Part shown: piece by piece, positions 9,816 through 59,960 of the stretch
How the letters are laid out: every line of letters begins with the position of its first letter
Position numbering within the stretch: position 1 is the stretch's first letter
DNA from: Alphaproteobacteria bacterium
GTDB lineage: Bacteria > Pseudomonadota > Alphaproteobacteria > UBA9219
DNA: 64,000 nt
Assembly: GCA_013286365.1 (NCBI GenBank)
Contig: JABDFY010000005.1
Location: forward strand, 6,364-70,363
Direction: 5' to 3'
Notes under the pieces: generated by a model
Databases searched by the model: none
Seen by the model: the letters and a program-made list of their open reading frames with translations, nothing else
Told to the model about the DNA's origin: nothing
Translations under genes and position numbers: made by a program

Positions 9816-9818
9816 AAT

Positions 9819-32439: not shown

Positions 32440-32499
32440 TTATTAGACAAACAATATTTCATGCAGACCATTCACAGCATTTTTGAAAGGAGAATAGGC

Positions 32500-34295: not shown

Positions 34296-34314
34296 TCCGC
34301 TTTTTGTAGATAAA

Positions 34315-35907: not shown

Positions 35908-36264
35908 ATGACCAACAACCATCTCACGCGCATATCGTTCCGCGTCAAACCGGACGAACGCAAAAGCATTATTGCCGATGCGAAGCAGGCAGGCATGACG
36001 ACGGGTTCATACGCCCGTTACCGTCTGCTCGAAGTGCCGCAGACAAGGGCCATCTATCGGCGCAGCGAGCTTAAGCGGCTGTTCAAGCATCTCATCGGGC
36101 AGATAGGACGCGTGAGTAACAACATGAACCAGATCGCCTGGAAAATGAACTGCAATATGGTGCTAGCTCCGCTTGACCTTGAACTTCACAGGGAAGGCAT
36201 TACGGCGCTCAAGGAGATGCGCGCGGTTCTTGTGGGCCATCTATTGCAAAATGGCCCATGCTGA
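35908..36264 (+). CDS. mobC: mobilisation accessory protein MobC family
   Basis: 118 aa; LIGQIGRVSNNMNQIAWKMN matches the MobC motif (L...G.IGNNLNQIAR..N); RHH-like N-terminus; immediately upstream of and overlapping relaxase gene. Confidence 0.65.
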   Translation: MTNNHLTRISFRVKPDERKSIIADAKQAGMTTGSYARYRLLEVPQTRAIYRRSELKRLFKHLIGQIGRVSNNMNQIAWKMNCNMVLAPLDLELHREGITALKEMRAVLVGHLLQNGPC

Positions 36265-39602: not shown

Positions 39603-39887
39603 TCACTTCTTTCGTTTGGCAGTTGGTTTTTGTTTATCAACAGGCAAAAGCGTTACGCCAACAGCTTTCAGCTCGTCTGTGGAAACAGATTTCAGCTCGA
39701 TGAAGTCTACTCCGTGACCGGCAAAGGCTTGTACGAGCTTTTCGATGCTTTTGGCGTGCGGCTTTTTAAAATAGCTGCATTCGATATTTTTTATAGTTTC
39801 AGGAGAAATATTGGCGACCTCGGCAAGCTCAAGCCTTGTCCAGTCTAGGAGTGCCCTTGCCGCTCTAAGTTGTTCGCTCGTTATCAT
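39603..39887 (-). CDS. XRE-family helix-turn-helix protein (short member of local paralog family)
   Basis: MITSEQLRAARALLDWTRLELAEVANISPETIKNIE is an HTH_3-like pattern; N-terminus shared with 51308-51967 and 52662-53357 products and with a remnant at 42686-42802. Confidence 0.55.
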   Translation of the reverse strand: MITSEQLRAARALLDWTRLELAEVANISPETIKNIECSYFKKPHAKSIEKLVQAFAGHGVDFIELKSVSTDELKAVGVTLLPVDKQKPTAKRKK

Positions 39888-39970
39888 GGCTGCAAATCCA
39901 AGCTAAAATAGATTGCTGACGGCTAAGTTCGTCCAGGAGCAGTTCTGTTAAGAAAAGCCCAGGCACTTTC
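39884..39970. repeat. 87-bp direct repeat copy A (3' end of HExxH paralog + intergenic + next start codon context)
   Basis: tcatggctgcaaatccaagctaAaataGattgcTgacggctaagttcgtccaggagcagttctgTtaagaaaagcccaggcactttc; 5 mismatches (uppercase) versus copy B at 41284-41370. Confidence 0.85.
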
Positions 39971-41287
39971 TCCGCAGCGTCTTCGGGCAATTTCAGGCGT
40001 TGCTGGCCCTGCAACAGCCGGAGAGGTTCTTGCAGATTTATCAGCGAATTTCATAGAAGCCCCGTCTGAAGCCGAATATAAAGTAGGCTGTGAAGACTTT
40101 AATAAAGAGGGACAAAAATATGCAGCCGCATCTTTTATAAGCTTTGCGTGATGGCGTACAAGTTCTGTGGTTAGACTGGAGTCTTCGATAATATCGCACA
40201 ATATTGGAAGAGCGATCGCCGGATTATCTCCCTGGGCTTTTCCTACCTCTCTATCAAGTTCGTCAAATAATGGTTTAAGAGAGGTTGGCGGAACATATAG
40301 TCTAGCAAACGTCTTATTTAAGATAGCCGTTTGTAATGCAACTGAGTCTTGTTCAATGGGAATTCCTAATAAACGTCCCTTAACACGCATGCGGATTTCA
40401 GTGTTAGTTAGGTAGTAACTTATGCTGCGCCTTTTTTCTCGTGATGAAAGACCTTGTAAATCAGGAATAAAGTTTATAAGTGGTAAGAAGGGACCAGATT
40501 GCATAACCGGATCAAAACATATTAAGTGTCCTGCTGACGGTTTTATAAAGCCGCTCAAATATCGTGATTTATGCAATACCGGAATTGCATCTCTAATATT
40601 GGCCGCTAGAGCCGGATTGGACTTTTCTACAAATGCTGCTTGAGATTCTATACACTCGTCCGCAAATGATTCTGCGTCATGTTCATATTGTCTGACAATG
40701 CTAGTGTTTACCTCATGTGATAGGCCTCGTCCTTGTAAGGAATGCCCCAGTTCATGAAAAAAAATGTAATGAGTTAGGATACCTTTCGGATATCTTTCTA
40801 AAAAATTCGTTGAACTGAACCCTAGACGATATGCCCATTGGTCAGATTCTGGCATTTGCTCATCAAATATAAAGAGGCATGATAGATATGGAAACATAGT
40901 TCCATTGAGTCTTCGAGGAAAAGGGCCTGGCAAAATTTTCTGGGCCGGTCGTCGAACAATTATATGTAAGTTTGGCCCTGGTTCGTTAAATGCCTCATTC
41001 TGCCAATACCCATTCCATGCTTTTGGTTCTTCTTTTAAAAATGCAGATGATATGTCTGGAAATAGACGCTCAATGGTTGCCCTGACAAACTTTCTTTGTA
41101 CATCCACTTCACTCCCTAAGACATCTACCAAATTTATAACTGCAATTTGTTGTTCCCATGCTTCACTCAATAATAATGAGAAGCTATCATTTGAAAATTC
41201 GTGTCTACGAAACACAAGATCTCTCGCATAATTACGCCACTGTCCAATAAGTGAAGGATCTTGTTTAAGTAGTACAACGTTATTCAT
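39923..41287 (-). CDS. HExxH-motif putative zinc metallopeptidase, paralog 1 (conserved C-terminal tail ...SAWAFLNRTAPGRT)
   Basis: 454 aa; FFHELGHSLQ HExxH motif; shares blocks AVINLxDV, PDxxW, E.xIRxR, YFCPSL and the terminal 15 aa with the two upstream paralogs; no N-terminal signal peptide. Confidence 0.5.
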   Translation of the reverse strand: MNNVVLLKQDPSLIGQWRNYARDLVFRRHEFSNDSFSLLLSEAWEQQIAVINLVDVLGSEVDVQRKFVRATIERLFPDISSAFLKEEPKAWNGYWQNEAFNEPGPNLHIIVRRPAQKILPGPFPRRLNGTMFPYLSCLFIFDEQMPESDQWAYRLGFSSTNFLERYPKGILTHYIFFHELGHSLQGRGLSHEVNTSIVRQYEHDAESFADECIESQAAFVEKSNPALAANIRDAIPVLHKSRYLSGFIKPSAGHLICFDPVMQSGPFLPLINFIPDLQGLSSREKRRSISYYLTNTEIRMRVKGRLLGIPIEQDSVALQTAILNKTFARLYVPPTSLKPLFDELDREVGKAQGDNPAIALPILCDIIEDSSLTTELVRHHAKLIKDAAAYFCPSLLKSSQPTLYSASDGASMKFADKSARTSPAVAGPATPEIARRRCGESAWAFLNRTAPGRT

Positions 41288-41370
41288 GGCTGCAAATCCA
41301 AGCTATAATAAATTGCCGACGGCTAAGTTCGTCCAGGAGCAGTTCTGCTAAGAAAAGCCCAGGCACTTTC
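41284..41370. repeat. 87-bp direct repeat copy B
   Basis: Near-identical to 39884-39970; a degenerate third copy lies around 42838-42900. Confidence 0.85.
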
Positions 41371-42600
41371 CCCTGGTTGTCTTGCTCCACTGGAAGCTGG
41401 TGCCGGTCTAGTCGCAATAGGAACGCGATCAAGCTTCGGAACATGTGCGAACAAGGATGGACAGAAATAAGAGGACGCATCAAGTAATATATCCGCATGA
41501 TGCCTTGTAAAGGGACAAGTAATTTCGCCAGAACCTATTAGTCCTGGAATTTCTGGTAGCAATTGAGTTCCTGCAGCATTGCTTGCGATCCTATTCCAAG
41601 TTTCTAAACAGGAAGATAATTCTGCTGTAAGGGTGCCTCCATCTACATGCCACGTTTTAAGAATTTGCTGAAGATTTGAGGAATTTAATTTTATTTGTTT
41701 TTTGTCATGGATAGCTGAAATGCGAACACGAATCTCCATTTCGGTAATCCAGCTAGCTAAAGCAAGCTTGCGTTCGAATGTTAAGTGCTTCATTTCGTCA
41801 ACAACTGGCGGGAATTGACCAGTTAAATTGCCGTAGTCAAAAATGGAGTGGTATTCTGGGTCATATCTCAAGAATCCCCTAAGTGTTCTAGCCCATTTAA
41901 AGGCTGTACAGACTTCTCGAATTGCCTTGGCTTCGAGTGGATTTACTGCATCAAGAATAAGCGCTTGATTACCCGCCTGTTCCAACGCAAATTGATCGGC
42001 ATCGCGTTCTGCAATCCAACGTCCTTGGGGGCCATACTGTTCTTGTTGTAATTGAATAAAATGTCCCAATTCATGGAGAAACATTAAATCTTTAACAGCT
42101 TTGCTCTTAGGAAAATTTTCAAGATTATTTCCCAAATCGGTAAAATATTTCCATTCCTGAGCTGGTGTCCAACGCCTATCAGGAGCAAGGAGCAAGCCCA
42201 TAATTATTAGTCGATCTCCCGACAGTCTCGGAGGAAAAACGCTATTTCGAAATAATTGGGGTTGAAGACTATGTGCTAAAACAATAGCTCCTGGGCCCAA
42301 AGGTTTGCGTTGCAGATTATTCCAATAATGGTGCCAGCCAGATTTAAGAGGTGCTACCTCTCGAGGAAACATCTGCTCATAAGATCGTCTTAAATAGCTT
42401 GTGTTTGCAGCAAACTGTTCATCAGACGGTAATTGTATATGTTCTGGGTTGGCTGAAGAGAATGGTACATCAGCTAAGTTTATTACAGCTATTCTCTGCC
42501 CCGTACTCTGAAAGAGTAAACGTGAGAAATCAGCAGCTGAAGCATCATTCCACCGAAAGAGTAATGATGTGGCCTCTCGTTGAGCTAGTATTTGGTTCAT
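41323..42600 (-). CDS. HExxH-motif putative zinc metallopeptidase, paralog 2 (C-terminal tail ...ESAWAFLSRTAPGRT)
   Basis: 425 aa; MFLHELGHFIQ; same conserved blocks as paralogs 1 and 3. Confidence 0.5.
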   Translation of the reverse strand: MNQILAQREATSLLFRWNDASAADFSRLLFQSTGQRIAVINLADVPFSSANPEHIQLPSDEQFAANTSYLRRSYEQMFPREVAPLKSGWHHYWNNLQRKPLGPGAIVLAHSLQPQLFRNSVFPPRLSGDRLIIMGLLLAPDRRWTPAQEWKYFTDLGNNLENFPKSKAVKDLMFLHELGHFIQLQQEQYGPQGRWIAERDADQFALEQAGNQALILDAVNPLEAKAIREVCTAFKWARTLRGFLRYDPEYHSIFDYGNLTGQFPPVVDEMKHLTFERKLALASWITEMEIRVRISAIHDKKQIKLNSSNLQQILKTWHVDGGTLTAELSSCLETWNRIASNAAGTQLLPEIPGLIGSGEITCPFTRHHADILLDASSYFCPSLFAHVPKLDRVPIATRPAPASSGARQPGESAWAFLSRTAPGRT

Positions 42601-42685: not shown

Positions 42686-42802
42686 TTAACCAAGAAATTT
42701 AACCAAATGAAGGGTGAAAGGTAACAAGAGTATATCTTGATTGTCAGGAGTTAGACCGTAACTTCCTACCCTTGCTGCTCTTAGTTGATCGCTTGTTATC
42801 AT
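42686..42802 (-). pseudogene. remnant of XRE-HTH gene start (MITSDQLRAAR...), degenerate
   Basis: Minus-strand ATG at 42800-42802 gives MITSDQLRAARVGSYGLTPDNQ..., matching MITSEQLRAARALLDW of 39603-39887 but decaying after 11 aa; the ORF-track ORF 42686-42958 is a chimera. Confidence 0.35.
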
Positions 42803-42839
42803 AATTACAAAAATCCAATATCTAAATAAATGTGAATGG

Positions 42840-44402
42840 CTAAGTTCTTCCCGGGGATGTTCGTCTAATAAAAGCCCACGCAGTTTCTTCGGGCAGCTTA
42901 TGTGGATTCTTATCAGCTTCTGGCCTCGCGGCTTCGGATGTCGGCGGGATAGCAGCATTTCCTACTGAAATACTTGCAGGCAAAGCTCTTCGGGCCAAAA
43001 GCTCTTTTGCCGTCGATTGAGCAACCTGCGCCGCCGCCGGAGATTTCGCTGCTGAATGGGCAGCTGCTGCAAGAAGTGCATTTATAAGTTGGTCTGCAGG
43101 AGATACGGGATTTGGGGCTAGATTTGTATGCGAAGATCGAACTATTCCCATATTTCGACCGTATGTAGAAAAGGGCACCATATCCAGTTGTGCATCAAGA
43201 GATCTGGGACAAAAATAGCCCGCTGCCCTGGCGACCAGGTTCGCACCTTCTTCAGTGATAGGGCAGGATATCCTTTGTTGCGATAGCAGTGCTTTTAATG
43301 CTGGCAATTTTTGTTGTGGCTTTACCAGCAAAGCCCACTGCGGCGACATCGCTGCATCAAAAAGCGCTCTGAGGTTTGGGGGAATTTTATCTTGTCTAAT
43401 GTTAGTCCATTGCTCACTTAGCCATAAACATCCGCATGACTTCATGTCCTCAGAATTTTGAATTATTTGAATATTAGCCAATAAAGCAATGCTGCGTGCG
43501 CGTAGTTCCAGATTAACAAGCCAATTTGTCATCGCTGATCTCTGTACACCGGACATCCGCGAATAGAGTTGGGTTAGGCCGCTAGGCACAAAGGATGATA
43601 TCAAATTATCGTCGTGGAAAATGACTGTGTCATGAAGCTGAGCGTCATGAAATCCAGAAAGGGTCCGCGCTTCTGGAACCTTTTGCAAAGTTTCATCCAC
43701 TAGCTTGGATTGATCAGGAGATATTGAGCTTATTAATTCTCTGCAATGACTAAGTGTTTCAGGGGCAAAAAAGTTAGCATCAATCTCTCCCAGCCAAGCC
43801 CTGGCATCACTTGCCATGGTCCTAGCCGTATGCGGTTCAGCAGTTTGAAGCGTTTCCGCCAGCTCATGGAAAAATGTGTGGTGTTTTATGCCGTTGCCTT
43901 TTGGGCAGTTTTCCAAAGTGTCAGGCGTCAAACCTGTTATATGACACCATAACTGTTCCCCAGACCAACGCCGGTCTGGAGTTAAAATCACAGAAAAAGT
44001 TGGGGCAAATTTTCCGGGCAACCTGTGCGCAAAGGACGTTTGCGGCACTTGTGCAAGAGGCTTATGGCCCATTCTAATATTCATCGGTTGTGGATTGAGG
44101 GCAGTCCTTGTCCACGTATCTTCCCATTCGGGTATGACTTTTGTTTCAACAGGGAAAATGCCTTCTGCGGCCTGTTTTACCCATGCGGCACGATGGGCAA
44201 ACTCTTCATGGGTATAAAATCTTCTGGTCCATGCCGGAGTACTATGCGGCAACTCCTGCAAATTAATAACCACTGTAGGGCGGCCTATGATTTTTGTTAC
44301 CAACCGCGAGAAATCAACATGCGGCATTGTTTCCCAGTTTAGCAACCCAGTGATTAATCGTTCTTTTCCGCTAAACTTGCGATTTTCTTCCTGCATTTGC
44401 AC
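42840..44402 (-). CDS. HExxH-like paralog 3 with degenerate motif (HELAE) and long Ala-rich insert; C-terminal tail ...ETAWAFIRRTSPGRT
   Basis: 520 aa; TFFHELAETLQ (second His replaced by Glu), possibly catalytically inactive; conserved blocks ILTPDRRW, YFCPRSL, terminal tail. Confidence 0.5.
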   Translation of the reverse strand: MQMQEENRKFSGKERLITGLLNWETMPHVDFSRLVTKIIGRPTVVINLQELPHSTPAWTRRFYTHEEFAHRAAWVKQAAEGIFPVETKVIPEWEDTWTRTALNPQPMNIRMGHKPLAQVPQTSFAHRLPGKFAPTFSVILTPDRRWSGEQLWCHITGLTPDTLENCPKGNGIKHHTFFHELAETLQTAEPHTARTMASDARAWLGEIDANFFAPETLSHCRELISSISPDQSKLVDETLQKVPEARTLSGFHDAQLHDTVIFHDDNLISSFVPSGLTQLYSRMSGVQRSAMTNWLVNLELRARSIALLANIQIIQNSEDMKSCGCLWLSEQWTNIRQDKIPPNLRALFDAAMSPQWALLVKPQQKLPALKALLSQQRISCPITEEGANLVARAAGYFCPRSLDAQLDMVPFSTYGRNMGIVRSSHTNLAPNPVSPADQLINALLAAAAHSAAKSPAAAQVAQSTAKELLARRALPASISVGNAAIPPTSEAARPEADKNPHKLPEETAWAFIRRTSPGRT

Positions 44403-44492: not shown

Positions 44493-47400
44493 TCAACCAG
44501 GCGTCAAGGCGTGATAAACAACCTCAGTGCCACTATGTCCGTCGGAACTTAAACCGAAACTTCCCGGATATGAACCAGGTACTATGATTGTATCCGTGCC
44601 AGCAGAACTGTTATGCAAAGTGATTGTTCCCGCTGTGTCCGCAGCATTCTCTTTAAAATTGAACGCTGTAGAGAATAGCGGAAAGTTTTTGATATCAATA
44701 AGGCTGCCGGGCTTGGCAAGATTTTCAATAATAAGGTTAGCTACGTCGGATGTAACCTGGAAGGTCGTTGAGCCAATGGTCGAGCCAATCAAGGTGTCGC
44801 CGCTACTACCGTTGAGTGTCGTTCCTGCGTTAGCAGCTATGAGTGTTTGCTTGGGAGCATCGATGAAGGTTTTAAATCCACGTATCTGATCAATATAGGT
44901 TTTTCCGGCTTCTACATAAGTGGCCGTTCCGGCAACCGTATTAACGGTCACTGCAGCGGCCACTTTATTGAAGCTCAAGGTTGGATTATTAACCCCAGAT
45001 GAGACCAACTTAACTGAGACTTCGTTGGGGGCGAGTGTCGTCTGTTCGGTTACCGCTTGAGCCACAGCAGCCGGTTTAGGAGGATCAACCATGTATGTGC
45101 CGCTAACCCCATCAGAAGAGAGAACATAGCTTCCTGCTGTAAAATTGCCATTTATATAGAACGATGTGCTTTGCCCTACGGTGTTTGAAAGACTGAACAA
45201 AGTTTGATTACCGGCGACAAGACTGGCCGTAACTGTGGCCGTTGTCGGAGCAAAGTTGGTTATGTCAATGACATCACTGGTGGGCGTATAATTGTTAATT
45301 GTAATGGGAGAGAGTGCGCTATTGAATTGAAAGGTCGTATTGCCACCTACGTAGCCGTACATCGTCGTTGAACTTGCATCTGCAATCAGTGTTTGCCCGG
45401 GGGCTGTGGCTGTAATTACGGCACCTGGGGATGTTGATACCAGCAAATCACTGCTGTAAGTCACACTGGGGTTGGGCAATTCGATATTATTACCCGTACC
45501 CATGATTGAAAGCTGCACCCCAGTGCCGCCGCCTGGATCACCATTCCGTCCAATCGTATTATTGTTGCCTATAATCGTGAGGTTGACGCCTGTTCCGACA
45601 AGAACCAAGTTGTTTGATCCAACCAAGATATTATTTGCGTCCCCTGCAACAAAATTGATGGTCGAGTTTGATAAATTGACGATGTTGCCCTTACCGGCCA
45701 CCATCGGATAGTCACCGTTGCCGCCAGTTATCAGATTGTTTGGGCCAACTACGGTTGAGCTAACATTGGCACCAAATGTTATGTAATTGCCGCCCCCGTT
45801 AATCCATGCATTCTTGCTTCCAGCATTATAGGCTATGGTGGCGTTCGATTCTGAGGTTGTGATGTTGGGGCCGCTTGCCACTATCGTTGTTCCGCCACCA
45901 CCACTGGGATCGCCGTTTACCCCTATGGTAAAGCCGGTGCCATAGGCCGCTAAGTTGACGCCCGGACCAGTGAGTATTAGGTCACTGCCGCCATAAACGG
46001 TATCGAAGGCACTACCTCGAACAAAATTAAGGGCGCAGTTTGATAAATCGACAGTCGTATAGCTGCCATCGATGAGGATATTTGCGCCAACACCGCCACC
46101 CGGATCGCCATTACTCCCTACAGTATTATAGTTGCCGACAAGCGAGGCCCCTATGCCGGTACCTACAAGGAACAAATCGTTATTGCCGTAGATCATTTGG
46201 TTAAGCGACCCAGCAGGGCAATTGATGGTGGAATAATCAAGCGTAGCTGTGTCACCGTTGCCCGCTAGCATCAGAATATCGCTGTTTCCTGTTATCGTAT
46301 TATGCGAGAGACCTGTGGCCCAAACGATCACGCTAGAGCCATAACCAATACTGATCTTGTCGTTAGCCCCGTTGATAGTCTCGTTGACGACGCCAGGGGC
46401 AATTTCAAAATCTACATTGGATACTGTTGCTGTGTTTTCACTATCTTTCAGCATTATTTCGAGAGGTGAGACGACCTCTCCCTGCACGAATTTGGCGTAC
46501 TCTGTCATCTGCGCTGAGGTAAACACAACTGTGGGTGTTCCTGGGTCGGTTAGACTAACCGCAAGGGAAACACCTTCAGCCGCAAGCTTCTGATCGGTTG
46601 GAATGCCGCTTATCATGTTTGCCAAAGATTCGCTGATGCTTAAGTTATGCGGACCCGTCATTGTGACTTGATCAAGCCCTATGGCCTGAGCTTGGGATAA
46701 TGCATTCATAAATGTCGAAAGAGCGTTAGGATCGCTTGACGTCGTCACGGCAGCGAGATAGCCCAAGGGATCAGCGACATATTGACTATAGATAGAAGCC
46801 GCATCGACGTTCGTTATTAGATTGGCAAGCGAACCATCAAGGCTTTGGTTGAAGGCATACATAACAATGGGGTTGCCCCCAATGATTGTAATGTTTTGCA
46901 ACCAGTTCATTACGGCTGCATCGATGCAATCTGTTGCATTTGTAAAACCGGCATCTTGGGGCGGGGCATAACCTGGCGCTATATCTCCAGGTGCAAAAAA
47001 TAATTTGTCTTTGAAAACGCCAAACGAATAGACCGATGAAGGCCCCCAGCCTATTACTGTTCCACCGGTAGACTTAATGATGTCGTTAAACATAGTCGTA
47101 AAGTCGTTACCCATGTTTATGGCGGTCTGTAGATCACTATTGGGACCACCTACATTGCCGCCGTTGTCAAAAGTTTCTTTAAATTCAATTGATACGTTTT
47201 CGGCGTTAATACCAACTTGGGCTACGGCGTTTGGCCCAACCGTTGGTACACTGCCGCCGCCAATGAAATTTTCGAAGGCATTAAGAGCATCACCAGCCAA
47301 GGTTCCTATGGCCTCGCCTACTGCTGAAGCAATTGGCCCCCAGTATGACCCTATTGCCGCACCCAGAGATCCTCCGACTTCCGCTGCTGTGTTATTGCTT

Positions 47401-49571
47401 GGAATAATTTCATTGATGACCATTGATACCGCTATATCCAGGCCTGCCGTCTCGAAGCTAGTGCCGAAGGTATCTCCAAACGTAGTAGCATCAGGCAAAG
47501 CGTTCGCCGATGAAACATTCGTGATCCCAAATTGCTCTAGCGTTGATTGGGCTAGCGCTGTGTCAGCCAGTTGGCTGGTTACTATATAGGCCGAGAGCTG
47601 TTGAGCCGTTGCCTGAAATGCAGCAGCACCAACGAGAGAGCCAAGCTGAGTTGGGATAAACCCCGTCAGTTTGGCAAGATCGGCACCGGCAATAGAGCCT
47701 AGAATGCCGCTCGCCATGTTACTGATCGAGGCTGCAACATCAGTCGCAAAATCTGGCGGGTTAGCCGTGGGCGTAATGGCCTGTTCGGCTGCATCAATGC
47801 CCGCTTTGATAAAAGCCTGGCTGACGACGGAGGCCGGAATGTTATGTGCGAAAGCGAAGTCAGAGACAATAATCCCTGCTACGGCATTAGCTATATATCC
47901 TCCCAATATTGTCGATTCAGCAGGATTGCCATCCAAGCTGGAGCCGAGGGAGGGCAATTGAAGACCGTCTGAATTGCTGAAATCAAGCTTGATCAGAAAG
48001 GCCCCTGTAATGGGGTCGTAATATGAAACTGAGGTGCCGTCTGCCGTGGTTGTGGTTTGCTGGGTTAAGATACCATTGTTGGTATTGACGACCTTTATGG
48101 AGTTGGTGCCATCGGCATTAGTATTATAGGTAGCATAAGAATTGCCTGAACTACTGACCTGTACACCGCCGACATTCTGGCCAGCAGCATTATTAATGGC
48201 GACGGTCGTACCATCCGATGAATTTGTGATATTGAAGGTTGAATTGGGGCTAGATGCATTAAGTGGAACGTTCACTAATCCTTGTCCTCCCGTGAGAACG
48301 AGCCACGCATTATTAGAAGTCGGATCAATCAGAATTTGTGGCGTCGATCCTGCCGTTGAGAAGTCCGATAAAGTGATATCCGGGCCGCTATTGCTAATAA
48401 CAGGTGATGCGCCATCAGGAATGACGAAATAATTACCGCCCGATAGAAATGTCATCTCAGAGCTGGCACTGGGTATAGACAAGACGCTGGTAGTGTCGGA
48501 CGTTGGATTGGTGAAAGCGGCAGAAACGCCGCCACCAGTCAACGGAGTGACGACAGGCTCATCATTTTTTCCGAAACCTACAACTTCCTTGTTGGCTGAT
48601 AATGTGCCGCCACTAGCATTAGTTTGCTCAATATAATTGGAGCTAGGATTTAGAAAATCTTGGACATTTAAAATTGCCGATGCCGCATTGCTGCCGTCAG
48701 CGGCAAGATCCAAACTTACGCCTGGCGCAAGATTATAAATGCTCGCACTACTTGGTTGCGCTAAGTAATCTTTGAAATCGATTTGTTGAGGGTTTGTCGG
48801 GCCCAAGAGAAACTGTTGTAAAGTAATACCTTCCTGTTGAATGTACTGATCAAGTTCTTGAAGGTTGTTTTGTGCGGCAGTGAGAGCTGTATGAAATGCT
48901 CCCGCCAACGAATCTTCCTGTAATCCAAGTACATGGGTATAAGTGATGCTAACGCTATCGGTAGCAAATGCGTCAGCTTGATTTTGTGTATAACCACGCA
49001 AAAGTAACGCGGAAAAATAGTCTTGAGTTGTTGAAAGTGCGATGAGGTGATAAGCATCGGCCAGCCCTTGTTCAGCAGGCGTAAGCTGGTCATAAAACGA
49101 GGTATCGGAAAAGCCAGTTGCAATGCCAGGAGCTGCGCCTGCCCAAGAGTACTGTGCAACCCCTAGTGCGGTGACACCTTTTTGTGCATCGACACTTTGA
49201 ATTTGTTGAAAATCTGGAATTACTCCGTTTCCGTTAATTATATCCGTAAAAAATGCTTTTGCTATACTATTGGATGAGTTCTGTTCTTGGGGGCCAAAGA
49301 GGTTGATTATTTCACCAAGTTGATCAAGGACAGCAGCTTGGTTAACGGCGCGAATAGCGACAGCATCAAATGTTGAAGCCCCCGAATTTACGTCATAAGC
49401 GATGCTTATCCAATTTAATATCTGCTGGTCAGCAGGGCTTGGGTTTGGGTTTTGTGTCTTCAAGTCTTGAAGCACCGCATTATATCCAACCGCATAATTA
49501 GGAAGATTAGGATTATTCCTGAGTTGATTAAGTAATAAGAGCGTATTTGCTGATATTTGCATATTAACCAC
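44493..49571 (-). CDS. giant (1692 aa) Gly/Asn/Thr/Ser-rich repeat protein, probable beta-helical surface/secreted protein without N-terminal signal peptide
   Basis: Tandem about 50-aa repeats (NFV.G....L.G.N.L.L.G.GVNL...G...T.G.NGDPGGG.G); no Sec signal (MVNMQISANTLLLLNQ...); start overlaps upstream 227-aa secreted-protein gene by 8 nt. Confidence 0.55.
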   Translation of the reverse strand: MVNMQISANTLLLLNQLRNNPNLPNYAVGYNAVLQDLKTQNPNPSPADQQILNWISIAYDVNSGASTFDAVAIRAVNQAAVLDQLGEIINLFGPQEQNSSNSIAKAFFTDIINGNGVIPDFQQIQSVDAQKGVTALGVAQYSWAGAAPGIATGFSDTSFYDQLTPAEQGLADAYHLIALSTTQDYFSALLLRGYTQNQADAFATDSVSITYTHVLGLQEDSLAGAFHTALTAAQNNLQELDQYIQQEGITLQQFLLGPTNPQQIDFKDYLAQPSSASIYNLAPGVSLDLAADGSNAASAILNVQDFLNPSSNYIEQTNASGGTLSANKEVVGFGKNDEPVVTPLTGGGVSAAFTNPTSDTTSVLSIPSASSEMTFLSGGNYFVIPDGASPVISNSGPDITLSDFSTAGSTPQILIDPTSNNAWLVLTGGQGLVNVPLNASSPNSTFNITNSSDGTTVAINNAAGQNVGGVQVSSSGNSYATYNTNADGTNSIKVVNTNNGILTQQTTTTADGTSVSYYDPITGAFLIKLDFSNSDGLQLPSLGSSLDGNPAESTILGGYIANAVAGIIVSDFAFAHNIPASVVSQAFIKAGIDAAEQAITPTANPPDFATDVAASISNMASGILGSIAGADLAKLTGFIPTQLGSLVGAAAFQATAQQLSAYIVTSQLADTALAQSTLEQFGITNVSSANALPDATTFGDTFGTSFETAGLDIAVSMVINEIIPSNNTAAEVGGSLGAAIGSYWGPIASAVGEAIGTLAGDALNAFENFIGGGSVPTVGPNAVAQVGINAENVSIEFKETFDNGGNVGGPNSDLQTAINMGNDFTTMFNDIIKSTGGTVIGWGPSSVYSFGVFKDKLFFAPGDIAPGYAPPQDAGFTNATDCIDAAVMNWLQNITIIGGNPIVMYAFNQSLDGSLANLITNVDAASIYSQYVADPLGYLAAVTTSSDPNALSTFMNALSQAQAIGLDQVTMTGPHNLSISESLANMISGIPTDQKLAAEGVSLAVSLTDPGTPTVVFTSAQMTEYAKFVQGEVVSPLEIMLKDSENTATVSNVDFEIAPGVVNETINGANDKISIGYGSSVIVWATGLSHNTITGNSDILMLAGNGDTATLDYSTINCPAGSLNQMIYGNNDLFLVGTGIGASLVGNYNTVGSNGDPGGGVGANILIDGSYTTVDLSNCALNFVRGSAFDTVYGGSDLILTGPGVNLAAYGTGFTIGVNGDPSGGGGTTIVASGPNITTSESNATIAYNAGSKNAWINGGGNYITFGANVSSTVVGPNNLITGGNGDYPMVAGKGNIVNLSNSTINFVAGDANNILVGSNNLVLVGTGVNLTIIGNNNTIGRNGDPGGGTGVQLSIMGTGNNIELPNPSVTYSSDLLVSTSPGAVITATAPGQTLIADASSTTMYGYVGGNTTFQFNSALSPITINNYTPTSDVIDITNFAPTTATVTASLVAGNQTLFSLSNTVGQSTSFYINGNFTAGSYVLSSDGVSGTYMVDPPKPAAVAQAVTEQTTLAPNEVSVKLVSSGVNNPTLSFNKVAAAVTVNTVAGTATYVEAGKTYIDQIRGFKTFIDAPKQTLIAANAGTTLNGSSGDTLIGSTIGSTTFQVTSDVANLIIENLAKPGSLIDIKNFPLFSTAFNFKENAADTAGTITLHNSSAGTDTIIVPGSYPGSFGLSSDGHSGTEVVYHALTPG

Positions 49572-50247
49572 CAGCTTTAATTGATTTTATGAATTGACTG
49601 ATGTTTGCCCGAATATCCTCCCAATGAGGCATTAGGGAGTCATTAAAATCGCACAGCAGAGTAACTCCTGGTGTTAAATCAAAATAAGTTTGACACCTTC
49701 TGGCTGCAGGATCTTTCTCCTTCGCGCATTCGACAGCGATGTTTTCCTTCGTAGTACCGTCAGCTATATAATAAATATCTTCGGCACCGCTAAGAGTGTA
49801 ATGTTTTGAAATAAACAGCCCATAACGTTTATCATGTTCGGAAATACCTTTTTCTGCTGCAATAACATTATCGGCGATATAAGACGCGTGCGAAAATAAT
49901 TTAGTGCTTTTTAGTTCTATAATGTTTGGTGAATGCCAGCGTTTGCGGTAGACAAACTCATCTATTGTCTTCTCGGTCGCTCCATTGAAGTCGGGGAAGT
50001 GTATTACTGCTTGAAAGAACACCGTACCGTCGGAACTATAGATTGCTGTTTCAAGATAATTTCTTGGAATATTAAGTACTGCACCATTGATGTGAATGGT
50101 AACTAAATGTGTTTCTACTGACGGGGTGTAAACAATGTATTTTTCTGAAACCGAGTCGGCTTCTGCATAGACTGGATGCGATCCCAGTAGGCAAACGCAC
50201 GATATGAGAAAAATAATCTTTGAAAGATAAAGTTTAGATAGTTTCAT
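49564..50247 (-). CDS. secreted hypothetical protein co-transcribed with the giant repeat protein
   Basis: Signal peptide MKLSKLYLSKIIFLISCVCLLGSHPVYA; 227 aa. Confidence 0.45.
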   Translation of the reverse strand: MKLSKLYLSKIIFLISCVCLLGSHPVYAEADSVSEKYIVYTPSVETHLVTIHINGAVLNIPRNYLETAIYSSDGTVFFQAVIHFPDFNGATEKTIDEFVYRKRWHSPNIIELKSTKLFSHASYIADNVIAAEKGISEHDKRYGLFISKHYTLSGAEDIYYIADGTTKENIAVECAKEKDPAARRCQTYFDLTPGVTLLCDFNDSLMPHWEDIRANISQFIKSIKAGG

Positions 50248-50474
50248 TTCACTTCTCTTTGTTTACCTTGTTTTGTCCAGCTTCGGGTCCTCAGTGGGCA
50301 AGGCGCGGAGAATAAATTCGCAGAGAATATAGTTATGAGCCGCAAACATCATATGCCTTTGCGCCTTTATTGTCATCAGAACGGACATAGAACAAACCAA
50401 ATTTTGTTAAATGATAGGCCTTTGTTTGCCGATAAACAGTAATAAGCCATTGGATTCAGGAGACAATGCATCGG

Positions 50475-50834
50475 CTATTTTTCTCCCAATACGACCCTAT
50501 GCGCCCTAGCAAGTACGACCCCTGTTTCCTGTTCGGCCTCCCAAGAAAGACCCTTACTATTGAGGCAGAGCTCTAAGGCATTAGTCAGGTCAGCAATAAG
50601 TTTTTGGTGCTTTTCATAATCGTTTACAGCACTGACAATAAGTTCTGCGTTGGCATGAGCATCCACAAATTCCGTTTGATGTGTTTCTGCGATGACCTCT
50701 AATCGGTTATTCTTCTCTACATAGGCTTCAATATCAGAACCACTTGCATGGTGATGGCAAATCCAGCGTGGCGACGTAGATTGGACAGGTGCATTGTGCG
50801 CAACGCGCTTAGTCTTTTTGTTTGTTCTTGTCAT
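50475..50834 (-). CDS. hypothetical protein (second gene of coupled small pair)
   Basis: MTRTNKKTKRVAHNAP...; ATG overlaps the stop of the 50831-51073 gene (ATGA). ORF-track start 50912 is an upstream extension. Confidence 0.3.
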   Translation of the reverse strand: MTRTNKKTKRVAHNAPVQSTSPRWICHHHASGSDIEAYVEKNNRLEVIAETHQTEFVDAHANAELIVSAVNDYEKHQKLIADLTNALELCLNSKGLSWEAEQETGVVLARAHRVVLGEK

Positions 50835-51073
50835 TTCGCCGCTCTTTTCATGCTCTCTTTGCCTGGAGCATCCATTATGAGCGCTGCCGATGCCTCTTTT
50901 GCTTTTGACCAACGTTGGTTGATCTCATCGCGGGTGAAACCACGGGCTTCAAGGTCGTGCGGAAGACAACCACCTTTGTCTTCGATGATTTCAGCGATGA
51001 CTGTCGCCATACGTAGAAGGCGCGGCTCAAGTTTTTCTACATGGTCATTGTTGGCCATAGCGACAATTTTCAT
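50831..51073 (-). CDS. small hypothetical protein (first gene of coupled pair)
   Basis: 80 aa, charged/helical. Confidence 0.3.
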   Translation of the reverse strand: MKIVAMANNDHVEKLEPRLLRMATVIAEIIEDKGGCLPHDLEARGFTRDEINQRWSKAKEASAALIMDAPGKESMKRAAK

Positions 51074-51307: not shown

Positions 51308-51967
51308 CTATAAATGAAATGGAGAAGCAGTATCCCAAAGTAAAAAGAAATTGCTTCTGTAAGCTTGCGCTAGGCTCGACATGTCAAATACAACGAATTT
51401 AAAGGTTGAATTGACCTGCTCCATAATGATTGCGTGTTTGCCGCCGTACGTGAAAAATGAAATGGGGCCAATATGTTGTTTCGGAATTATCCGGAGTTGC
51501 AGCTGTGGAACAAGCAATGAGCGTTCTGGAACAGAGGACAAGAGGCATTTAATGGAAGAAAACTCACCTAATTGCTCAAAGCTGTCGTGAGCTGCCAGAC
51601 ATAATTGTTGCATTATTTCTGGCGACTTGAATAAAGCAATGACTTCATTGCCATCTTCCTTGATAGTCTGGAACACATCTTCAAAGAACAAGTCACAACT
51701 GTCCGGCCCCTGATAAACTTTGACCTCATCTAAGCGGCGTCTTATGCCTTCTGGTTCGATAAACTCCAATCCGGCATTTTCGATTGCTTTGCGAATTTCG
51801 TTGGCTGTTGTGCTGCGCGGTGACATACCGCCCGACTCCATATTGCGGACAGTCGTGACGGACAAGCCTGATATGGTCGCTAAATCATCCTGCGACCAAT
51901 CAAGAAGCGCTCTTGCTGCTTTAATTTGTCCTGAGCGTACTGGGTACATCTGATATATATTCTTCAA
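51308..51967 (-). CDS. XRE-family HTH regulator with about 130-aa C-terminal domain (paralog family member)
   Basis: IKAARALLDWSQDDLATISGLSVTTVRNMESG HTH_3 motif; C-terminal domain paralogous to that of 52662-53357 product. Confidence 0.5.
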   Translation of the reverse strand: MKNIYQMYPVRSGQIKAARALLDWSQDDLATISGLSVTTVRNMESGGMSPRSTTANEIRKAIENAGLEFIEPEGIRRRLDEVKVYQGPDSCDLFFEDVFQTIKEDGNEVIALFKSPEIMQQLCLAAHDSFEQLGEFSSIKCLLSSVPERSLLVPQLQLRIIPKQHIGPISFFTYGGKHAIIMEQVNSTFKFVVFDMSSLAQAYRSNFFLLWDTASPFHL

Positions 51968-55490: not shown

Positions 55491-55523
55491 CCCGTTCGGC
55501 ATTGCCCGCAACGGGTTTTTTTA
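55491..55523 (+). terminator. rho-independent terminator-like hairpin after leuB
   Basis: CCCGTTCGG-cattgc-CCGcAACGGG followed by TTTTTTT. Confidence 0.4.
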
Positions 55524-55537
55524 CATGGAGAAATGTA

Positions 55538-56752
55538 ATGGAGGCCTCATATTTAAACGTATATGACCGTGTTACAGCAGAGATTATTGCCGATCTTGAG
55601 CAGGGCGTCATGCCATGGCAAAGACCGTGGGTTGGTGGAGCAGGGCCGGTAACACGGCCCAGGCGTCATACTGGCGAGCCTTACAATGGCGCAAATGTTC
55701 TTCTCTTATGGATGAGAGCCTGCAAGCAAGGCTATCGCAACCCTACATGGATGACATTCAAACAAGCCATAGAATATGGGGCAAATGTCCGAAAGGGCGA
55801 AAAGTCGGCTTACGTTGTTTATGCCAGCTCAGCTTCAAAGACAGAAACCGACGCTAGAACAGGCGAGGACATTGAAAGGCAAATCTCTTTCTTGCGCGGC
55901 TACCATGTATTCAATGTCGAGCAGATTGATGGTTTACCTGAAAAGTTTTTACCAAAACCGGAACCTCAGCCAAGCGCATTACCGGCGGTTGGACGCCTGG
56001 AAAATGTTGATCACTATATCAAAAATACTGGTGCCGAAGTTCGTCATGGCGGATGTGAAGCATATTATGTGGAAAATTCCGACTACATCCAAATGCCGTT
56101 TATCGACGCCTTCAAGGATGCCGAAAGTTACTATGCAACACTCGCCCATGAAACTACCCACTGGACGGCTCACAATAGCCGCCTGGATAGAAAATTTGGT
56201 TCTGTCGTGTATGGCGATGAAGGTTATGCCAAGGAAGAGCTTGTAGCTGAAATCGGGTCGGCCTTCCTATGTGCCGATTTAGGCATAACGCCGGAAGTGC
56301 GCGAAGACCACGCTGCCTATATCGCCGATTGGCTGGAGGCACTGAAGAATGATAAGAAACTTATCTTTACGGCTTCGGCCCATGCCAGCCGTGCCGTTGA
56401 GTTCTTGAAATCAAAGCAACCAAATATCACAGCAGATATAAAGCAGGAAGAAAAGACCGTTACCGATTACCAAACACTCTATGTCAGTCCGCCCATGCAG
56501 GTTAGCAACCATTTGTGGCGATTGCGTATTGAGCGTAGCGGAAGGGCCATGTTTACCGTCTATGAGTTTCAAGACGAAAGCGGCTCTTTCTGGAAGCGGA
56601 GCCAAGATTGGCCGGAATACGATACTAACGATACATATTCCGGTTTACCGCGTGGGCTTTCCAACCTCTACAGGCGCGAACAACCAGCTTTGGTAAAATT
56701 CGGGCTCGTTTCGCAACCGGCTGCGCCAAAGCAAGGAGGATTAAATCTATAA
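55538..56752 (+). CDS. ardC: ArdC-family antirestriction protein (ssDNA-binding N-domain + HExxH zincin C-domain)
   Basis: N-terminal DUF1738-like region (YDRVTAEIIADLEQGVMPWQRPW...NGANVLLLW); C-terminal metalloprotease motif LAHETTHWTAH; RBS GGAG before ATG 55538. ORF-track start 55502 lies inside the terminator hairpin. Confidence 0.7.
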   Translation: MEASYLNVYDRVTAEIIADLEQGVMPWQRPWVGGAGPVTRPRRHTGEPYNGANVLLLWMRACKQGYRNPTWMTFKQAIEYGANVRKGEKSAYVVYASSASKTETDARTGEDIERQISFLRGYHVFNVEQIDGLPEKFLPKPEPQPSALPAVGRLENVDHYIKNTGAEVRHGGCEAYYVENSDYIQMPFIDAFKDAESYYATLAHETTHWTAHNSRLDRKFGSVVYGDEGYAKEELVAEIGSAFLCADLGITPEVREDHAAYIADWLEALKNDKKLIFTASAHASRAVEFLKSKQPNITADIKQEEKTVTDYQTLYVSPPMQVSNHLWRLRIERSGRAMFTVYEFQDESGSFWKRSQDWPEYDTNDTYSGLPRGLSNLYRREQPALVKFGLVSQPAAPKQGGLNL

Positions 56753-56828
56753 TGGCCTTCTATATTGCTACTTGTCTAAGGCTACCAGTGGACTTTACGA
56801 TGTGATTCATACCTCTCCGTCGTAAGAG

Positions 56829-58256: not shown

Positions 58257-58311
58257 AAATGAATATTGATAACAGATTTGGTTGATCTTACTGCTGTATC
58301 GAGGTTGTGAT

Positions 58312-59685: not shown

Positions 59686-59960
59686 TAAATTGTTGGTCAT
59701 GCAAAAGATTACAAACATGAAGTCAGCCCCAGAATTTCGTGTTCAATTCCGACCTACCGAAACTCATTTGACCATGTGACGGGGCTGCTGGAATTAGTCA
59801 GAGCAGTGGTCGCCGATAGCCGCTGAACGCAAGCTATGACATTGGCCTTAATAAATTATCTATCCCCCTAATTGCGCTTAGATTTTTCCGAATATGTGGT
59901 TATAGTTTCGGATGCGAGTCTCATTTATGAGTCGGGCAAAAAAGCCTGATTCATTCAGAG

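What the first reader, a model, noticed from the sequence alone, without database searches (positions are those of the whole stretch)
44493..50247. 1692-aa beta-helix-like repeat protein with no signal peptide, translationally coupled to a small secreted protein and directly upstream of the HExxH paralog array
The giant ORF is low-complexity (Gly/Asn/Thr/Ser/Val) with at least three tandem about 50-aa repeats containing G.NGDPGGG.G, reminiscent of parallel beta-helix adhesins and toxins. It does not fit the RTX nonapeptide. Its start overlaps the stop of a 227-aa signal-peptide protein, and the HExxH paralogs follow it, all on the minus strand as one long co-directional block. The arrangement (small secreted partner, giant repeat protein, array of variable paralogs with a conserved tail) resembles polymorphic-toxin or effector delivery loci. 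No known T1SS/T5SS/T6SS component is present in the window.
Basis: partly seen in the sequence, partly recalled or inferred. Interest (0 to 1): 0.7.

Follow-up and report, generated by a model that had tools for sequence, protein, structure and literature searches.

The report
Giant modular exoprotein with periplasmic partner
The giant gene is real and encodes a rare, modular, probably secreted toxin-like protein whose N-terminal domain is preceded by the same small periplasmic partner gene in all three loci that could be read; the neighbouring HExxH genes look like a separate module.

Summary
The ORF is real. Its true start is most likely ATG 49562 (1689 aa), 1 nt after the partner's stop. 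It is very acidic, has 3 Cys and no signal peptide. No Pfam, NCBIfam, PHROG, PADLOC or PDB sequence match was found. An exhaustive HMMER search found 57 relatives and showed that the protein is a unique fusion of two undescribed modules.

- N-terminal domain (aa 1-265). It is always N-terminal in relatives, where it is fused to Hint or calpain domains.
- Central module (aa 455-1020). It is rich in glycine-zipper motifs. It also occurs in acidic 1000-2200-aa proteins, some with hydrolase N-termini or RTX C-termini.
- The rest is about five 60-65-aa repeats and two copies of a ~100-aa C-terminal domain.

The 227-aa partner has a signal peptide and two conserved Cys. It recurs immediately upstream of N-domain genes in two unrelated metagenomic loci, so this is a conserved gene pair.

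Best reading (about 0.4): a one-step-secreted toxin with a periplasmic immunity-like partner. The three HExxH genes are orphans. They appear to be duplicated HExxH-plus-Xre-repressor units joined by a 90-nt repeat. No evidence links them to the giant gene. The locus lies on a mobilisable island. No phage or secretion-system genes are nearby.

The parts
49564..50247 (-). Partner gene: 227-aa exported protein with a signal peptide and two conserved Cys (C174, C185)
   Evidence: Translation. Hydropathy. Homolog in L083 at 30% identity, E=2e-20. Partial homolog in L082, E=3e-10 against L083. Alignment A7 shows the invariant Cys pair. No Pfam, NCBIfam, PHROG, PADLOC or PDB sequence match.
44493..49562 (-). 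Giant CDS, 1689 aa from ATG 49562 (the mechanical ORF start is GTG 49571)
   Evidence: The start is supported by relatives that begin MQLS. The identical protein is on record once, P0001.
48768..49562 (-). N-terminal domain, aa 1-265. Helical and undescribed; always at the extreme N-terminus of relatives
   Evidence: About 28 relatives at 24-48% identity. In relatives it is fused to Hint_2 (P0011) or calpain C2 (P0013). No Pfam or PDB sequence match.
48201..48767 (-). Ser/Thr/Asn/Gly-rich region, aa 266-454; unassigned
   Evidence: Composition. Not covered by relatives except marginally.
46503..48200 (-). Central conserved module, aa ~455-1020. Motifs in order: YYDPxTG, glycine-zipper region, SVGPNA, GGNP/GGDPYM, DLNAAxDYSxY-like
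   Evidence: About 30 relatives, E down to 1e-46. No PDB sequence match beyond a compositional tape-measure hit at E=0.027.
47238..47900 (-). Amphipathic glycine-zipper sub-region, aa 555-775
   Evidence: 21 small-xxx-small-xxx-small motifs against 4-11 in the other segments. Hydropathy peak 1.57, so no classical TM helix. The equivalent region of relatives gives weak Pfam Gly-zipper hits below the curated cut-offs.
45456..46433 (-). Repeat region, aa ~1044-1369: about five 60-65-aa units with NGDP[GS]GG turns; beta-solenoid-like
   Evidence: Self-comparison. Motif positions. A relative, P0035, has Pfam Beta_helix after the module. The AF2 model was too poor to confirm the fold.
45072..45317 (-). 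C-terminal ~100-aa domain, copy 1 (aa 1416-1497), ending SSDGVSGTYMVDPP
   Evidence: Matches a profile of the D-x-ID...SDGxGGTlivDPP domain of relatives at 24.0 bits. Internal duplicate.
44508..44804 (-). C-terminal ~100-aa domain, copy 2 (aa 1587-1685), ending SSDGHSGTEVV
   Evidence: 17.8 bits to the same profile. Duplicate of copy 1, E=9e-8.
50348..50376 (-). Promoter-like site ATGACA-17-TATGAT, about 100 nt upstream of the partner gene
   Evidence: Match is 10 of 12, but the total number of such sites in the region is not above chance.
42840..44402 (-). HExxH-family paralog 1 (520 aa; motif degenerated to HELAE). Probably not part of the giant's system
41323..42600 (-). HExxH paralog 2 (425 aa, HELGH)
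   Evidence: AF2 pLDDT 55.7 and no fold match.
39923..41287 (-). HExxH paralog 3 (454 aa, HELGH)
39603..39887 (-). 94-aa Xre-type HTH protein that closes the array
   Evidence: Pfam HTH_3. PADLOC control protein at 1e-8 and capH at 2.5e-5.
39884..39973 (-). 90-nt junction repeat, copy 1. Other copies at 41284-41373 (94% identity) and 42801-42890 (63%)
   Evidence: Each copy spans the last 17 codons of a paralog, a 35-nt spacer and the ATG of the next gene.

Best explanation
The giant ORF encodes a modular exoprotein of a rare, so far undescribed family. The relatives look alphaproteobacterial. That is an inference from their Hint_2 fusions and Ala-rich composition, because the library carries no organism names.

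Shown:
- It is a unique fusion of an N-terminal ~265-aa domain, a ~570-aa central glycine-zipper module, a ~330-aa repeat region, and two copies of a ~100-aa C-terminal domain.
- The N-terminal domain is preceded by the same small partner gene in all three loci where the upstream sequence can be read. The partner carries an export signal and a conserved Cys pair.
- In relatives, the central module sits behind N-terminal hydrolase-type domains. It sits in front of RTX-type (type I secretion) C-termini or propeller/solenoid repeats.

Inferred mechanism:
1. The protein leaves the cell in one step without Sec. Most likely it uses a type I system encoded elsewhere in the genome.
2. The C-terminal repeats and domains bind a target surface.
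3. The amphipathic glycine-zipper module inserts into a membrane.
4. The N-terminal domain is the active payload.
5. The periplasmic partner is made from the same transcript by coupled translation. It neutralises that domain in the producer and its kin, as an immunity protein does.

The HExxH array downstream is best read as a separate module. It looks like duplicated units of an HExxH protein plus an Xre repressor carried by the same mobilisable island.
For: Gene and family:
- Real gene with 57 relatives in an exhaustive search of 1.84 billion representatives. The hits fall into two disjoint sets, N-domain and central module, and only this protein is in both.
- The N-domain is always at residue ~1 of relatives. 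It is fused to Hint_2 or calpain-type domains, which are domains of the auto-processing type.

Central-module relatives:
- They carry TseH-like (34 bits, above the cut-off) and lipase-like N-termini. In my knowledge these are typical periplasm-acting antibacterial effector activities.
- They carry RTX nonapeptides or HCBP_related at the C-terminus in P0007, P0017, P0027, P0033, P0038 and P0057.
- They are strongly acidic (full-length members net -38 to -237), almost Cys-free, and all but one lack signal peptides. These are the classic properties of T1SS substrates.
- The giant shares these properties: net -92 and 3 Cys.

Partner:
- Homolog directly upstream in L083, with stop, 1 nt, then ATG, exactly as in the window. 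Also upstream in L082, with a 6-nt gap. This holds despite only ~30% identity and a different C-terminal fusion.
- It has an N-terminal hydrophobic signal or anchor and two invariant Cys, which indicates an extracytoplasmic protein. A cytoplasmically made protein exported in one step has no obvious need for a periplasmic helper. That favours immunity.

Other:
- Glycine-zipper enrichment in aa 555-775.
- The locus sits among mobilisation genes, as accessory toxin cargo often does.
Against: - No secretion system is present in the window or in ~4 kb beyond its left edge.
- The giant itself has no tandem RTX repeats.
- The N-domain has no conserved His, Cys or Glu that would mark an obvious enzyme. 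Invariant residues are Y27, N59, R71, Q94, S97, D125 and W140.
- Immunity genes more often lie downstream of the toxin and track C-terminal domains. An upstream partner that tracks an N-terminal domain is equally typical of secretion or activation helpers.
- Gene neighbourhoods of the central-module relatives could not be retrieved. It is therefore untested whether their hydrolase N-termini also have exported partners.
- Only three loci support the gene pair.
- No usable structure model was obtained.
Confidence: 0.4

Rival explanations
1. Surface adhesin or matrix protein of the LapA/RTX-adhesin type. It would be exported by a T1SS and held at the cell surface by its N-terminal domain acting as a retention module in the periplasm. 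The small periplasmic partner would act on that domain, by processing, anchoring or release, rather than as an immunity protein.
For: - Acidic, Cys-poor and repeat-rich, with no recognisable enzyme domain in this protein.
- T1SS hallmarks in relatives.
- The partner is periplasmic and tracks the N-terminal domain, which is the topology of LapA and LapG (the LapA/LapG logic is from my own knowledge).
- The upstream, translationally coupled position suits an accessory factor.
Against: - The partner has no match to the LapG/BTLCP peptidase family. Its conserved C-terminal half has no invariant His or Asp.
- The N-domain is also fused to Hint_2 and calpain domains in 460-920-aa proteins that do not look like adhesins.
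- The central module occurs behind TseH-like and lipase-like domains, which fits toxins better.
Confidence: 0.25
2. One reading: one polymorphic-toxin or effector-delivery locus. The giant protein, with its partner, would deliver or display the HExxH paralogs. Their conserved C-terminal tail would be the recognition or export signal.
For: - All genes are co-directional with short gaps of 1, 90, 239, 35 and 35 nt, and no convincing terminator lies between them.
- The 16-residue tail is conserved at protein level even where the DNA has diverged to 63% identity. This suggests a functional C-terminal peptide.
- The tail is Arg-containing, as VirB/D4-type signals are (my own knowledge), and a relaxase lies 2 kb away.
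Against: - The HExxH genes share no sequence with the giant, so they are not displaced C-terminal cassettes.
- They have no relatives in 5.8 billion clusters by word search, nor in 185,579 species genomes, so co-occurrence cannot be shown.
- The relative with a visible 3' flank (L082) has no HExxH gene after it.
- The array's repeat unit is HExxH gene plus Xre HTH gene, with an HTH relic between paralogs 1 and 2. That resembles protease-repressor pairs of mobile elements.
- The first paralog has lost the second His.
Confidence: 0.12
3. Cargo effector of a contact-dependent system encoded elsewhere (T6SS or similar). The N-terminal domain would be the loading domain and the upstream partner its adaptor or chaperone.
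For: - Adaptor and chaperone genes typically sit immediately upstream of effectors and track their N-terminal regions (my own knowledge).
- A TseH-like domain occurs in a relative.
Against: - No PAAR, VgrG, MIX, Rhs, DUF1795, DUF4123 or DUF2169 match.
- The partner carries an export signal and a conserved Cys pair, whereas known T6SS adaptors are cytoplasmic.
- RTX C-termini in relatives point to T1SS.
Confidence: 0.08
4. Prophage tail fibre or receptor-binding protein.
For: Large, repeat-rich, Gly/Asn/Thr-rich protein with solenoid-like repeats.
Against: - No PHROG match for it or its neighbours.
- No relatives in 2.9 million viral contigs or in phage-type context.
- The flanking genes are relaxase, NikA, Toprim, ArdC and type I restriction genes, not phage structural genes.
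Confidence: 0.02

Closest known systems
RTX / type I secretion substrates (HlyA-type toxins and LapA-type adhesins)
   Same: Large, very acidic and nearly Cys-free, with no Sec signal. Has repeat regions and an internal amphipathic hydrophobic region. Several family relatives carry true RTX nonapeptide repeats and HCBP_related domains at the C-terminus.
   Different: This protein has no tandem nonapeptide block. There is only one RTX-like turn after each NGDPGGG motif. No ABC, MFP or TolC genes lie nearby, and there is no acyltransferase. An exported upstream partner is not part of the classical RTX operon.
Large A-B type translocating toxins exported by T1SS or released (Mcf1/FitD, large clostridial toxins). 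Comparison from my own knowledge of their architecture.
   Same: The order of parts matches: N-terminal payload, then a central hydrophobic or amphipathic delivery region, then C-terminal repeat or receptor-binding region. The family shows swapping of N-terminal enzyme domains in front of a constant central module.
   Different: No sequence similarity to any solved chain, which should include TcdA, TcdB and Mcf1 entries. No autoprotease domain is recognised in this protein. Translocation is inferred, not shown.
Periplasm-acting antibacterial effector and immunity pairs (e.g. T6SS Tae/Tai, Tle/Tli, TseH/TsiH)
   Same: A toxin without a signal peptide is paired with a small exported partner with Cys residues, and the two are tightly linked and co-diverging. 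A relative of the central-module family carries a TseH-like domain.
   Different: The partner lies upstream and tracks an N-terminal domain. No T6SS marker domains are present. Neither toxicity nor neutralisation has been tested.
Polymorphic toxin systems (Zhang, Aravind et al. 2012; CdiA, Rhs, MafB)
   Same: Modular giant protein on a mobile island. Family members shuffle end domains, and Hint and peptidase domains occur in relatives.
   Different: The variable enzyme domains are N-terminal, not C-terminal. The C-terminus is a shared non-toxin domain. The downstream paralogs are not orphan C-terminal cassettes.
ImmA/IrrE-ImmR and CapP-CapH metalloprotease-repressor pairs (for the HExxH array only)
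   Same: An HExxH protein is followed by a small Xre-type HTH protein on a mobile element. The HTH matches PADLOC control-protein and capH models.
   Different: No match to Peptidase_M78 or any zincin family. The proteins are 425-520 aa, carry a unique conserved C-terminal tail, and occur as a tandem array.

Membership tests
RTX / T1SS substrate | Tandem GGxGxDxUx nonapeptide repeats (Pfam PF00353) | tested here: not met
   No Pfam hit in the giant. A regex search finds a single RTX-like turn in the C-terminal part. The feature is met in relatives P0017, P0027, P0033 and P0057.
RTX / T1SS substrate | Linked ABC transporter, membrane-fusion protein and TolC-like genes | tested here: not met
   None among the ORFs of at least 150 aa scanned in the 64-kb window, nor in ~4 kb beyond its left edge. 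The rest of the genome could not be reached.
RTX / T1SS substrate | Acidic, Cys-poor, no N-terminal signal peptide | tested here: met
   127 D+E against 35 K+R and 3 Cys. The N-terminus is not hydrophobic.
RTX / T1SS substrate | Uncleaved C-terminal secretion signal that functions in export | not testable with these tools
   T1SS signals lack a searchable consensus. An export assay is needed.
Two-partner secretion (TpsA/TpsB) | Sec signal plus N-terminal TPS domain in the exoprotein, and an Omp85-type TpsB partner of about 550 aa | tested here: not met
   No signal peptide and no Haemagg_act, POTRA or ShlB match. The partner is 227 aa.
Polymorphic toxin system (C-terminal toxin plus immunity plus orphan cassettes) | Variable C-terminal toxin domain, followed by an immunity gene and by orphan cassettes that share the pre-toxin junction | tested here: not met
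   The C-terminus is two copies of a domain shared across the family. The downstream paralogs share no sequence with the giant.
Right-handed parallel beta-helix | Solenoid fold of stacked coils (Pfam Beta_helix or a confident model) | tested here: inconclusive
   No Pfam hit in the giant. The AF2 single-sequence model has pLDDT 35. The repeat periodicity is consistent with a solenoid. Relative P0035 has PF13229 in the equivalent position.
Phage tail fibre | Homology to phage fibre families and neighbouring phage structural genes | tested here: not met
   No PHROG hits. No viral-contig relatives. The context is conjugative mobilisation genes.
T6SS effector | PAAR, VgrG, MIX or Rhs domain, or a cytoplasmic adaptor (DUF1795, DUF4123, DUF2169) | tested here: not met
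   No such Pfam or NCBIfam hits. The partner has an export signal.
Toxin-immunity pair (periplasm-acting) | Toxicity of the domain in the target compartment, and specific neutralisation by the linked exported protein | not testable with these tools
   Only the genomic signature is shown: a conserved, coupled gene pair and an exported partner with a Cys pair.
ImmA/IrrE (Peptidase_M78)-Xre pair (HExxH array) | HExxH zincin domain matching PF06114, next to an Xre HTH substrate or repressor | tested here: inconclusive
   The HExxH motif is present in 2 of 3 paralogs, and an Xre HTH gene or its relic follows the units. There is no PF06114, PDB-sequence or fold match.

The most novel reading that the evidence does not exclude
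The N-terminal domain with its exported partner, together with the central glycine-zipper module, define a new class of one-step-secreted translocating toxins. In this class a constant membrane-insertion module delivers interchangeable N-terminal payloads (this domain, TseH-like amidases, lipases). Each payload would be matched by its own periplasmic immunity protein. This would be an N-terminal-payload counterpart of the classical C-terminal polymorphic toxins.
Probability: 0.25. Interest if true: 0.7.

Novelty: new variant of a known kind. Interest (0 to 1): 0.5.

Why it matters
If the reading holds, this locus gives a handle on three protein modules that have no entry in Pfam, NCBIfam or the PDB.

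- A payload-like N-terminal domain with a dedicated exported partner.
- A glycine-zipper module shared by about 30 giant acidic proteins, some with hydrolase N-termini or RTX tails.
- A recurrent C-terminal domain.

Together they would describe a family of secreted toxins with N-terminal payloads, carried on mobile islands. The gene pair is small enough to test directly in E. coli.

If the reading is wrong, the protein is still a well-delimited member of an uncharacterised exoprotein family. The HExxH array can then be set aside as a separate question.

Tried and rejected
Searches that found nothing:
- Word-indexed searches of 5.8 billion clusters with the whole giant, with one HExxH paralog and with a 14-row chimeric alignment returned only the query. 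The one extra hit was an unrelated YD-repeat protein. Low-complexity words swamped the candidate list.
- Because of that, relatives found by the exhaustive search could not be passed to the context or structure tools.
- A genome-collection scan with the HExxH alignment found nothing.
- tblastn of the giant, of a relative's N-domain and of a relative's central module against 72,556 plasmids gave no match. DNA against plasmids gave no match.
- Viral contigs gave none.

Structure:
- AF2 on aa 1001-1689 without an alignment gave pLDDT 35, which is unusable.
- AF2 on the three-paralog HExxH alignment gave pLDDT 55.7, with the HExxH region below 50. Foldseek against the PDB then found nothing at E<0.7.
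- PDB profile searches for the N-domain, the central module, the partner and the HExxH family gave nothing significant.

Ideas dropped:
- A double-glycine leader at the N-terminus was considered and dropped. No conserved GG is present in the alignment.
- LapG-like protease identity of the partner was considered and not supported.
- Promoter and terminator scans were not above chance, so operon structure is undecided.

Failed look-ups:
- Look-ups of right-flank proteins to extend beyond the window failed because the exact products are not on record.
- A literature search for the sequencing run found nothing.


Full report
**Observation**

The minus strand carries an uninterrupted ORF at 44493..49571. 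Its translation is rich in Ala, Gly, Thr, Ser and Asn. It has 127 acidic against 35 basic residues and 3 Cys.

The mechanical start is GTG 49571. Relatives begin MQLS..., which matches ATG 49562 (MQISAN...). The protein is therefore most likely 1689 aa and starts 1 nt after the TAA of the upstream 227-aa ORF (49564..50247). A GGTGG sequence lies 7-11 nt upstream of the ATG.

The giant's N-terminus is not hydrophobic, with a 12-residue hydropathy maximum of 1.1. The 227-aa protein has a typical signal sequence, with a maximum of 2.98 and a VYA-EA site.

Internal repeats are real. Residues 1087-1159 match 1275-1348 at 52.7% identity (E=1.7e-18), and further pairs give a 60-65-aa period over aa ~1044-1369. 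The NGDP[GS]GG motif lies at 1151, 1216 and 1340, with degenerate NGD copies at 1102 and 1282.

Three paralogs follow, of 520, 425 and 454 aa at 27-32% identity. Their motifs are HELAE, HELGH and HELGH. All end in E[ST]AWAF[LI]xRT[AS]PGRT.

No T1SS, T5SS or T6SS component was found among the ORFs of at least 150 aa scanned in the window.

**Organism and setting**

PurL at the left edge is at most 73% identical to uncultured Alphaproteobacteria/Rhodospirillales-like genomes. The source is therefore a poorly sampled alphaproteobacterium with about 45% G+C.

The left part of the window, and ~4 kb beyond it, is housekeeping: purQ/purL, znuABC, FtsW/RodA.

The locus lies inside a block of mobile-element genes:
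- Toprim primase-like, 32461-33510
- NikA-like, 35908-36264
- MobA/VirD2 relaxase, 36258-37400
- ArdC, 55502-56752
- a PD-(D/E)XK/RNase H-like protein
- a type I restriction R subunit

There are no tRNA genes, no phage genes, no PHROG hits and no relatives in viral contigs. The prophage tail-fibre alternative can be dismissed.

**What the giant protein is made of**

It has no match in Pfam, NCBIfam, PHROGs, PADLOC or PDB sequences. The word-indexed search found only itself.

The exhaustive HMMER search with aa 1-1030 against 1.84 billion representatives found 57 relatives at E<=1e-3, 40 of them at E<=1e-10. They fall into two disjoint sets. Only this protein belongs to both.

*Set 1: the N-terminal domain (aa 1-~265).* Relatives share 24-48% identity. 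The domain always starts at residue ~1. Where the protein continues, it is followed by a Hint_2 domain (P0011, also P0023 and P0025 by eye), a calpain-type peptidase (P0013), or D-x-ID...SDGxGGT domains. Invariant residues are Y27, N59, R71, Q94, S97, D125 and W140. Neither Pfam nor PDB knows the domain.

*Set 2: the central module (aa ~455-1020).* It contains, in order:
- a YYDPxTG motif
- an amphipathic stretch rich in small-xxx-small motifs (aa 555-775; 21 triple motifs against 4-11 elsewhere; no classical TM helix)
- an SVGPNA motif
- a GG[DN]P[YF]M motif
- a DLNAAxDYSxY-like helical end

It occurs in about 30 proteins, mostly of 1000-2200 aa. The full-length members are strongly acidic (net -38 to -237) and nearly Cys-free. 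All but one lack a signal peptide.

In those proteins 200-600 residues precede the module. These include a TseH-like hydrolase domain (P0012, 34 bits, above the cut-off) and a lipase-like GHSLGG domain (P0028, just below the cut-off).

After the module come RTX nonapeptide repeats and/or HCBP_related domains (P0007, P0017, P0027, P0033, P0038, P0057). Other members have a Pfam Beta_helix (P0035) or propeller-like repeats ending in a ...SDGxGGTLIVDPP domain.

*C-terminal domain.* A profile of that last domain matches the giant twice, at aa 1416-1497 (24.0 bits) and 1587-1685 (17.8 bits). These two regions are also each other's duplicates.

The giant is thus N-domain + Ser/Thr/Asn-rich region + central module + about five repeats + two C-terminal domains.

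**The partner**

The only two metagenomic loci recovered with the N-domain both carry a homolog of the 227-aa protein immediately upstream.
- In L083 it is a 253-aa protein with an N-terminal membrane anchor. It shares 30% identity over 210 residues (E=2e-20). Its TAA is followed by 1 nt and the ATG of the N-domain gene, exactly as in the window.
- In L082 a partial ORF ends 6 nt before the start of P0013, the calpain fusion. It matches the L083 protein at E=3e-10.

Two Cys and a Trp are invariant in the three sequences. The partner therefore tracks the N-domain, not the rest of the protein. It is extracytoplasmic and co-diverges with the N-domain. This is the strongest new fact about the finding.

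**Mechanism**

The family traits match type I secretion substrates: acidity, absence of Cys, no Sec signal, and RTX tails in many members. The layout is a variable N-terminal hydrolase-type domain, then a constant amphipathic glycine-zipper module, then C-terminal binding repeats. From my own knowledge, this is the layout of translocating toxins such as Mcf1/FitD and the large clostridial toxins. No sequence relationship to any solved structure was found.

In this layout the giant's N-domain occupies the payload position. A small exported partner with a conserved Cys pair then looks like the periplasmic immunity proteins of periplasm-acting effectors.

I therefore favour, at about 0.4, a one-step-secreted toxin with an immunity-like partner.

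The main rival, at about 0.25, keeps the T1SS route. It reads the N-domain as a periplasmic retention module and the partner as its processing or anchoring factor, as with LapA and LapG. The upstream position of the partner and the lack of obvious catalytic residues in the N-domain fit this rival as well. The partner shows no LapG-type features.

A T6SS-cargo reading is less likely, because the partner is exported and no T6SS marker domains are present.

None of these readings can be settled without the rest of the genome, the neighbourhoods of the relatives, or an experiment.

**The HExxH array**

The three genes are orphans. There were no relatives in the word-indexed search or in 185,579 species genomes, and no Pfam, PDB-sequence or fold match.

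A 90-nt direct repeat marks each junction. The copies lie at 39884-39973, at 41284-41373 (94% identity) and at 42801-42890 (63% identity). Each spans the last 17 codons, a 35-nt spacer and the next ATG.

After the third paralog the next gene is a 94-aa Xre-type HTH protein. It matches PADLOC control-protein and capH models.

After the first paralog the same HTH start (MITSDQLRAAR) survives as a relic in the 239-nt gap.

The ancestral unit was therefore HExxH gene plus HTH gene. This recalls ImmA-ImmR and CapP-CapH protease-repressor pairs of mobile elements, although family membership is not shown.

The C-terminal tail is conserved at protein level even where the DNA has diverged. It is probably functional, and its role is unknown.

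Nothing ties the array to the giant gene apart from strand and proximity. The one relative with a readable 3' flank (L082) is followed by a different gene.

**Verdict**

The protein is a new, uniquely fused member of a rare undescribed exoprotein family with a conserved exported partner. The delivery-locus idea that includes the HExxH genes is not supported.

Interest is moderate, at 0.5. The general kind, a giant modular secreted toxin or adhesin on a mobile island, is familiar. All three modules and the partner are uncharacterised, and the gene pair is directly testable.

Noticed in passing
window 39884-39973, 41284-41373, 42801-42890: A 90-nt direct repeat, at 94% and 63% identity to the first copy, spans the last 17 codons of each HExxH paralog, a 35-nt spacer and the ATG of the next gene. 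The rest of the paralogs are only ~30% identical at protein level. This suggests gene conversion or a functional junction element.
   Followed up: partly
window ~42700-42802 (minus strand), in the 239-nt gap between paralogs 1 and 2: Relic of an Xre-type HTH gene (MITSDQLRAAR...). It is nearly identical at its 5' end to the intact 94-aa HTH gene at 39603-39887. The array was therefore built from HExxH+HTH units.
   Followed up: partly
window 39603-39887 and 51308-51967 (minus strand): Both HTH proteins that bracket the block share the LRAARALLDW start. Both match PADLOC 'control protein' at about 1e-8, and the 94-aa one also matches capH. They may be repressors of the block or substrates of the HExxH proteins.
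   Followed up: no
window 32461-37400 and 55502-62993: The locus sits among mobile-element genes: Toprim, NikA-like, MobA/VirD2 relaxase, ArdC, a PD-(D/E)XK/RNase H-like protein and a type I restriction R subunit. No integrase or tRNA was seen, and the island borders were not determined.
   Followed up: partly
giant aa 1154-1165, 1220-1230, 1343-1352 (window ~46100-45500): Each NGDP[GS]GG motif runs into a single RTX-like nonapeptide, for example GGVGANILI, which fits GGxGx[DN]xUx. These are isolated possible Ca-binding turns rather than a tandem RTX block.
   Followed up: no
giant aa ~965-1030 (window ~46470-46670): A ~55-aa unit (…LAVSLTDPGTPTVVFTSAQ…) at the end of the central module occurs once here. 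It is tandemly repeated many times in relatives P0007, P0017, P0020, P0032 and P0058.
   Followed up: no
L082 2571-3473: Downstream of the N-domain/calpain fusion P0013 lies a 300-aa ORF with a signal peptide. It might be a second exported partner, possibly matched to the C-terminal peptidase.
   Followed up: no
window 42840-44402: The first HExxH paralog has HELAE, so the second His is lost. It also has a ~95-residue Ala/Pro-rich insertion before the conserved tail. It is possibly an inactive or diverged copy.
   Followed up: no
window 50475-51073 (minus strand): Two small ORFs of 80 and 119 aa lie between the upstream HTH gene and the partner gene. They have no family match except a weak IetA hit (2e-4) for the 119-aa one. 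They overlap by 4 nt and may belong to the same transcription unit.
   Followed up: no
window 5162-10466: Metal-homeostasis cluster with two DUF1007 genes, a NicO-like permease and znuA/B/C-type genes. It is unrelated to the finding.
   Followed up: no
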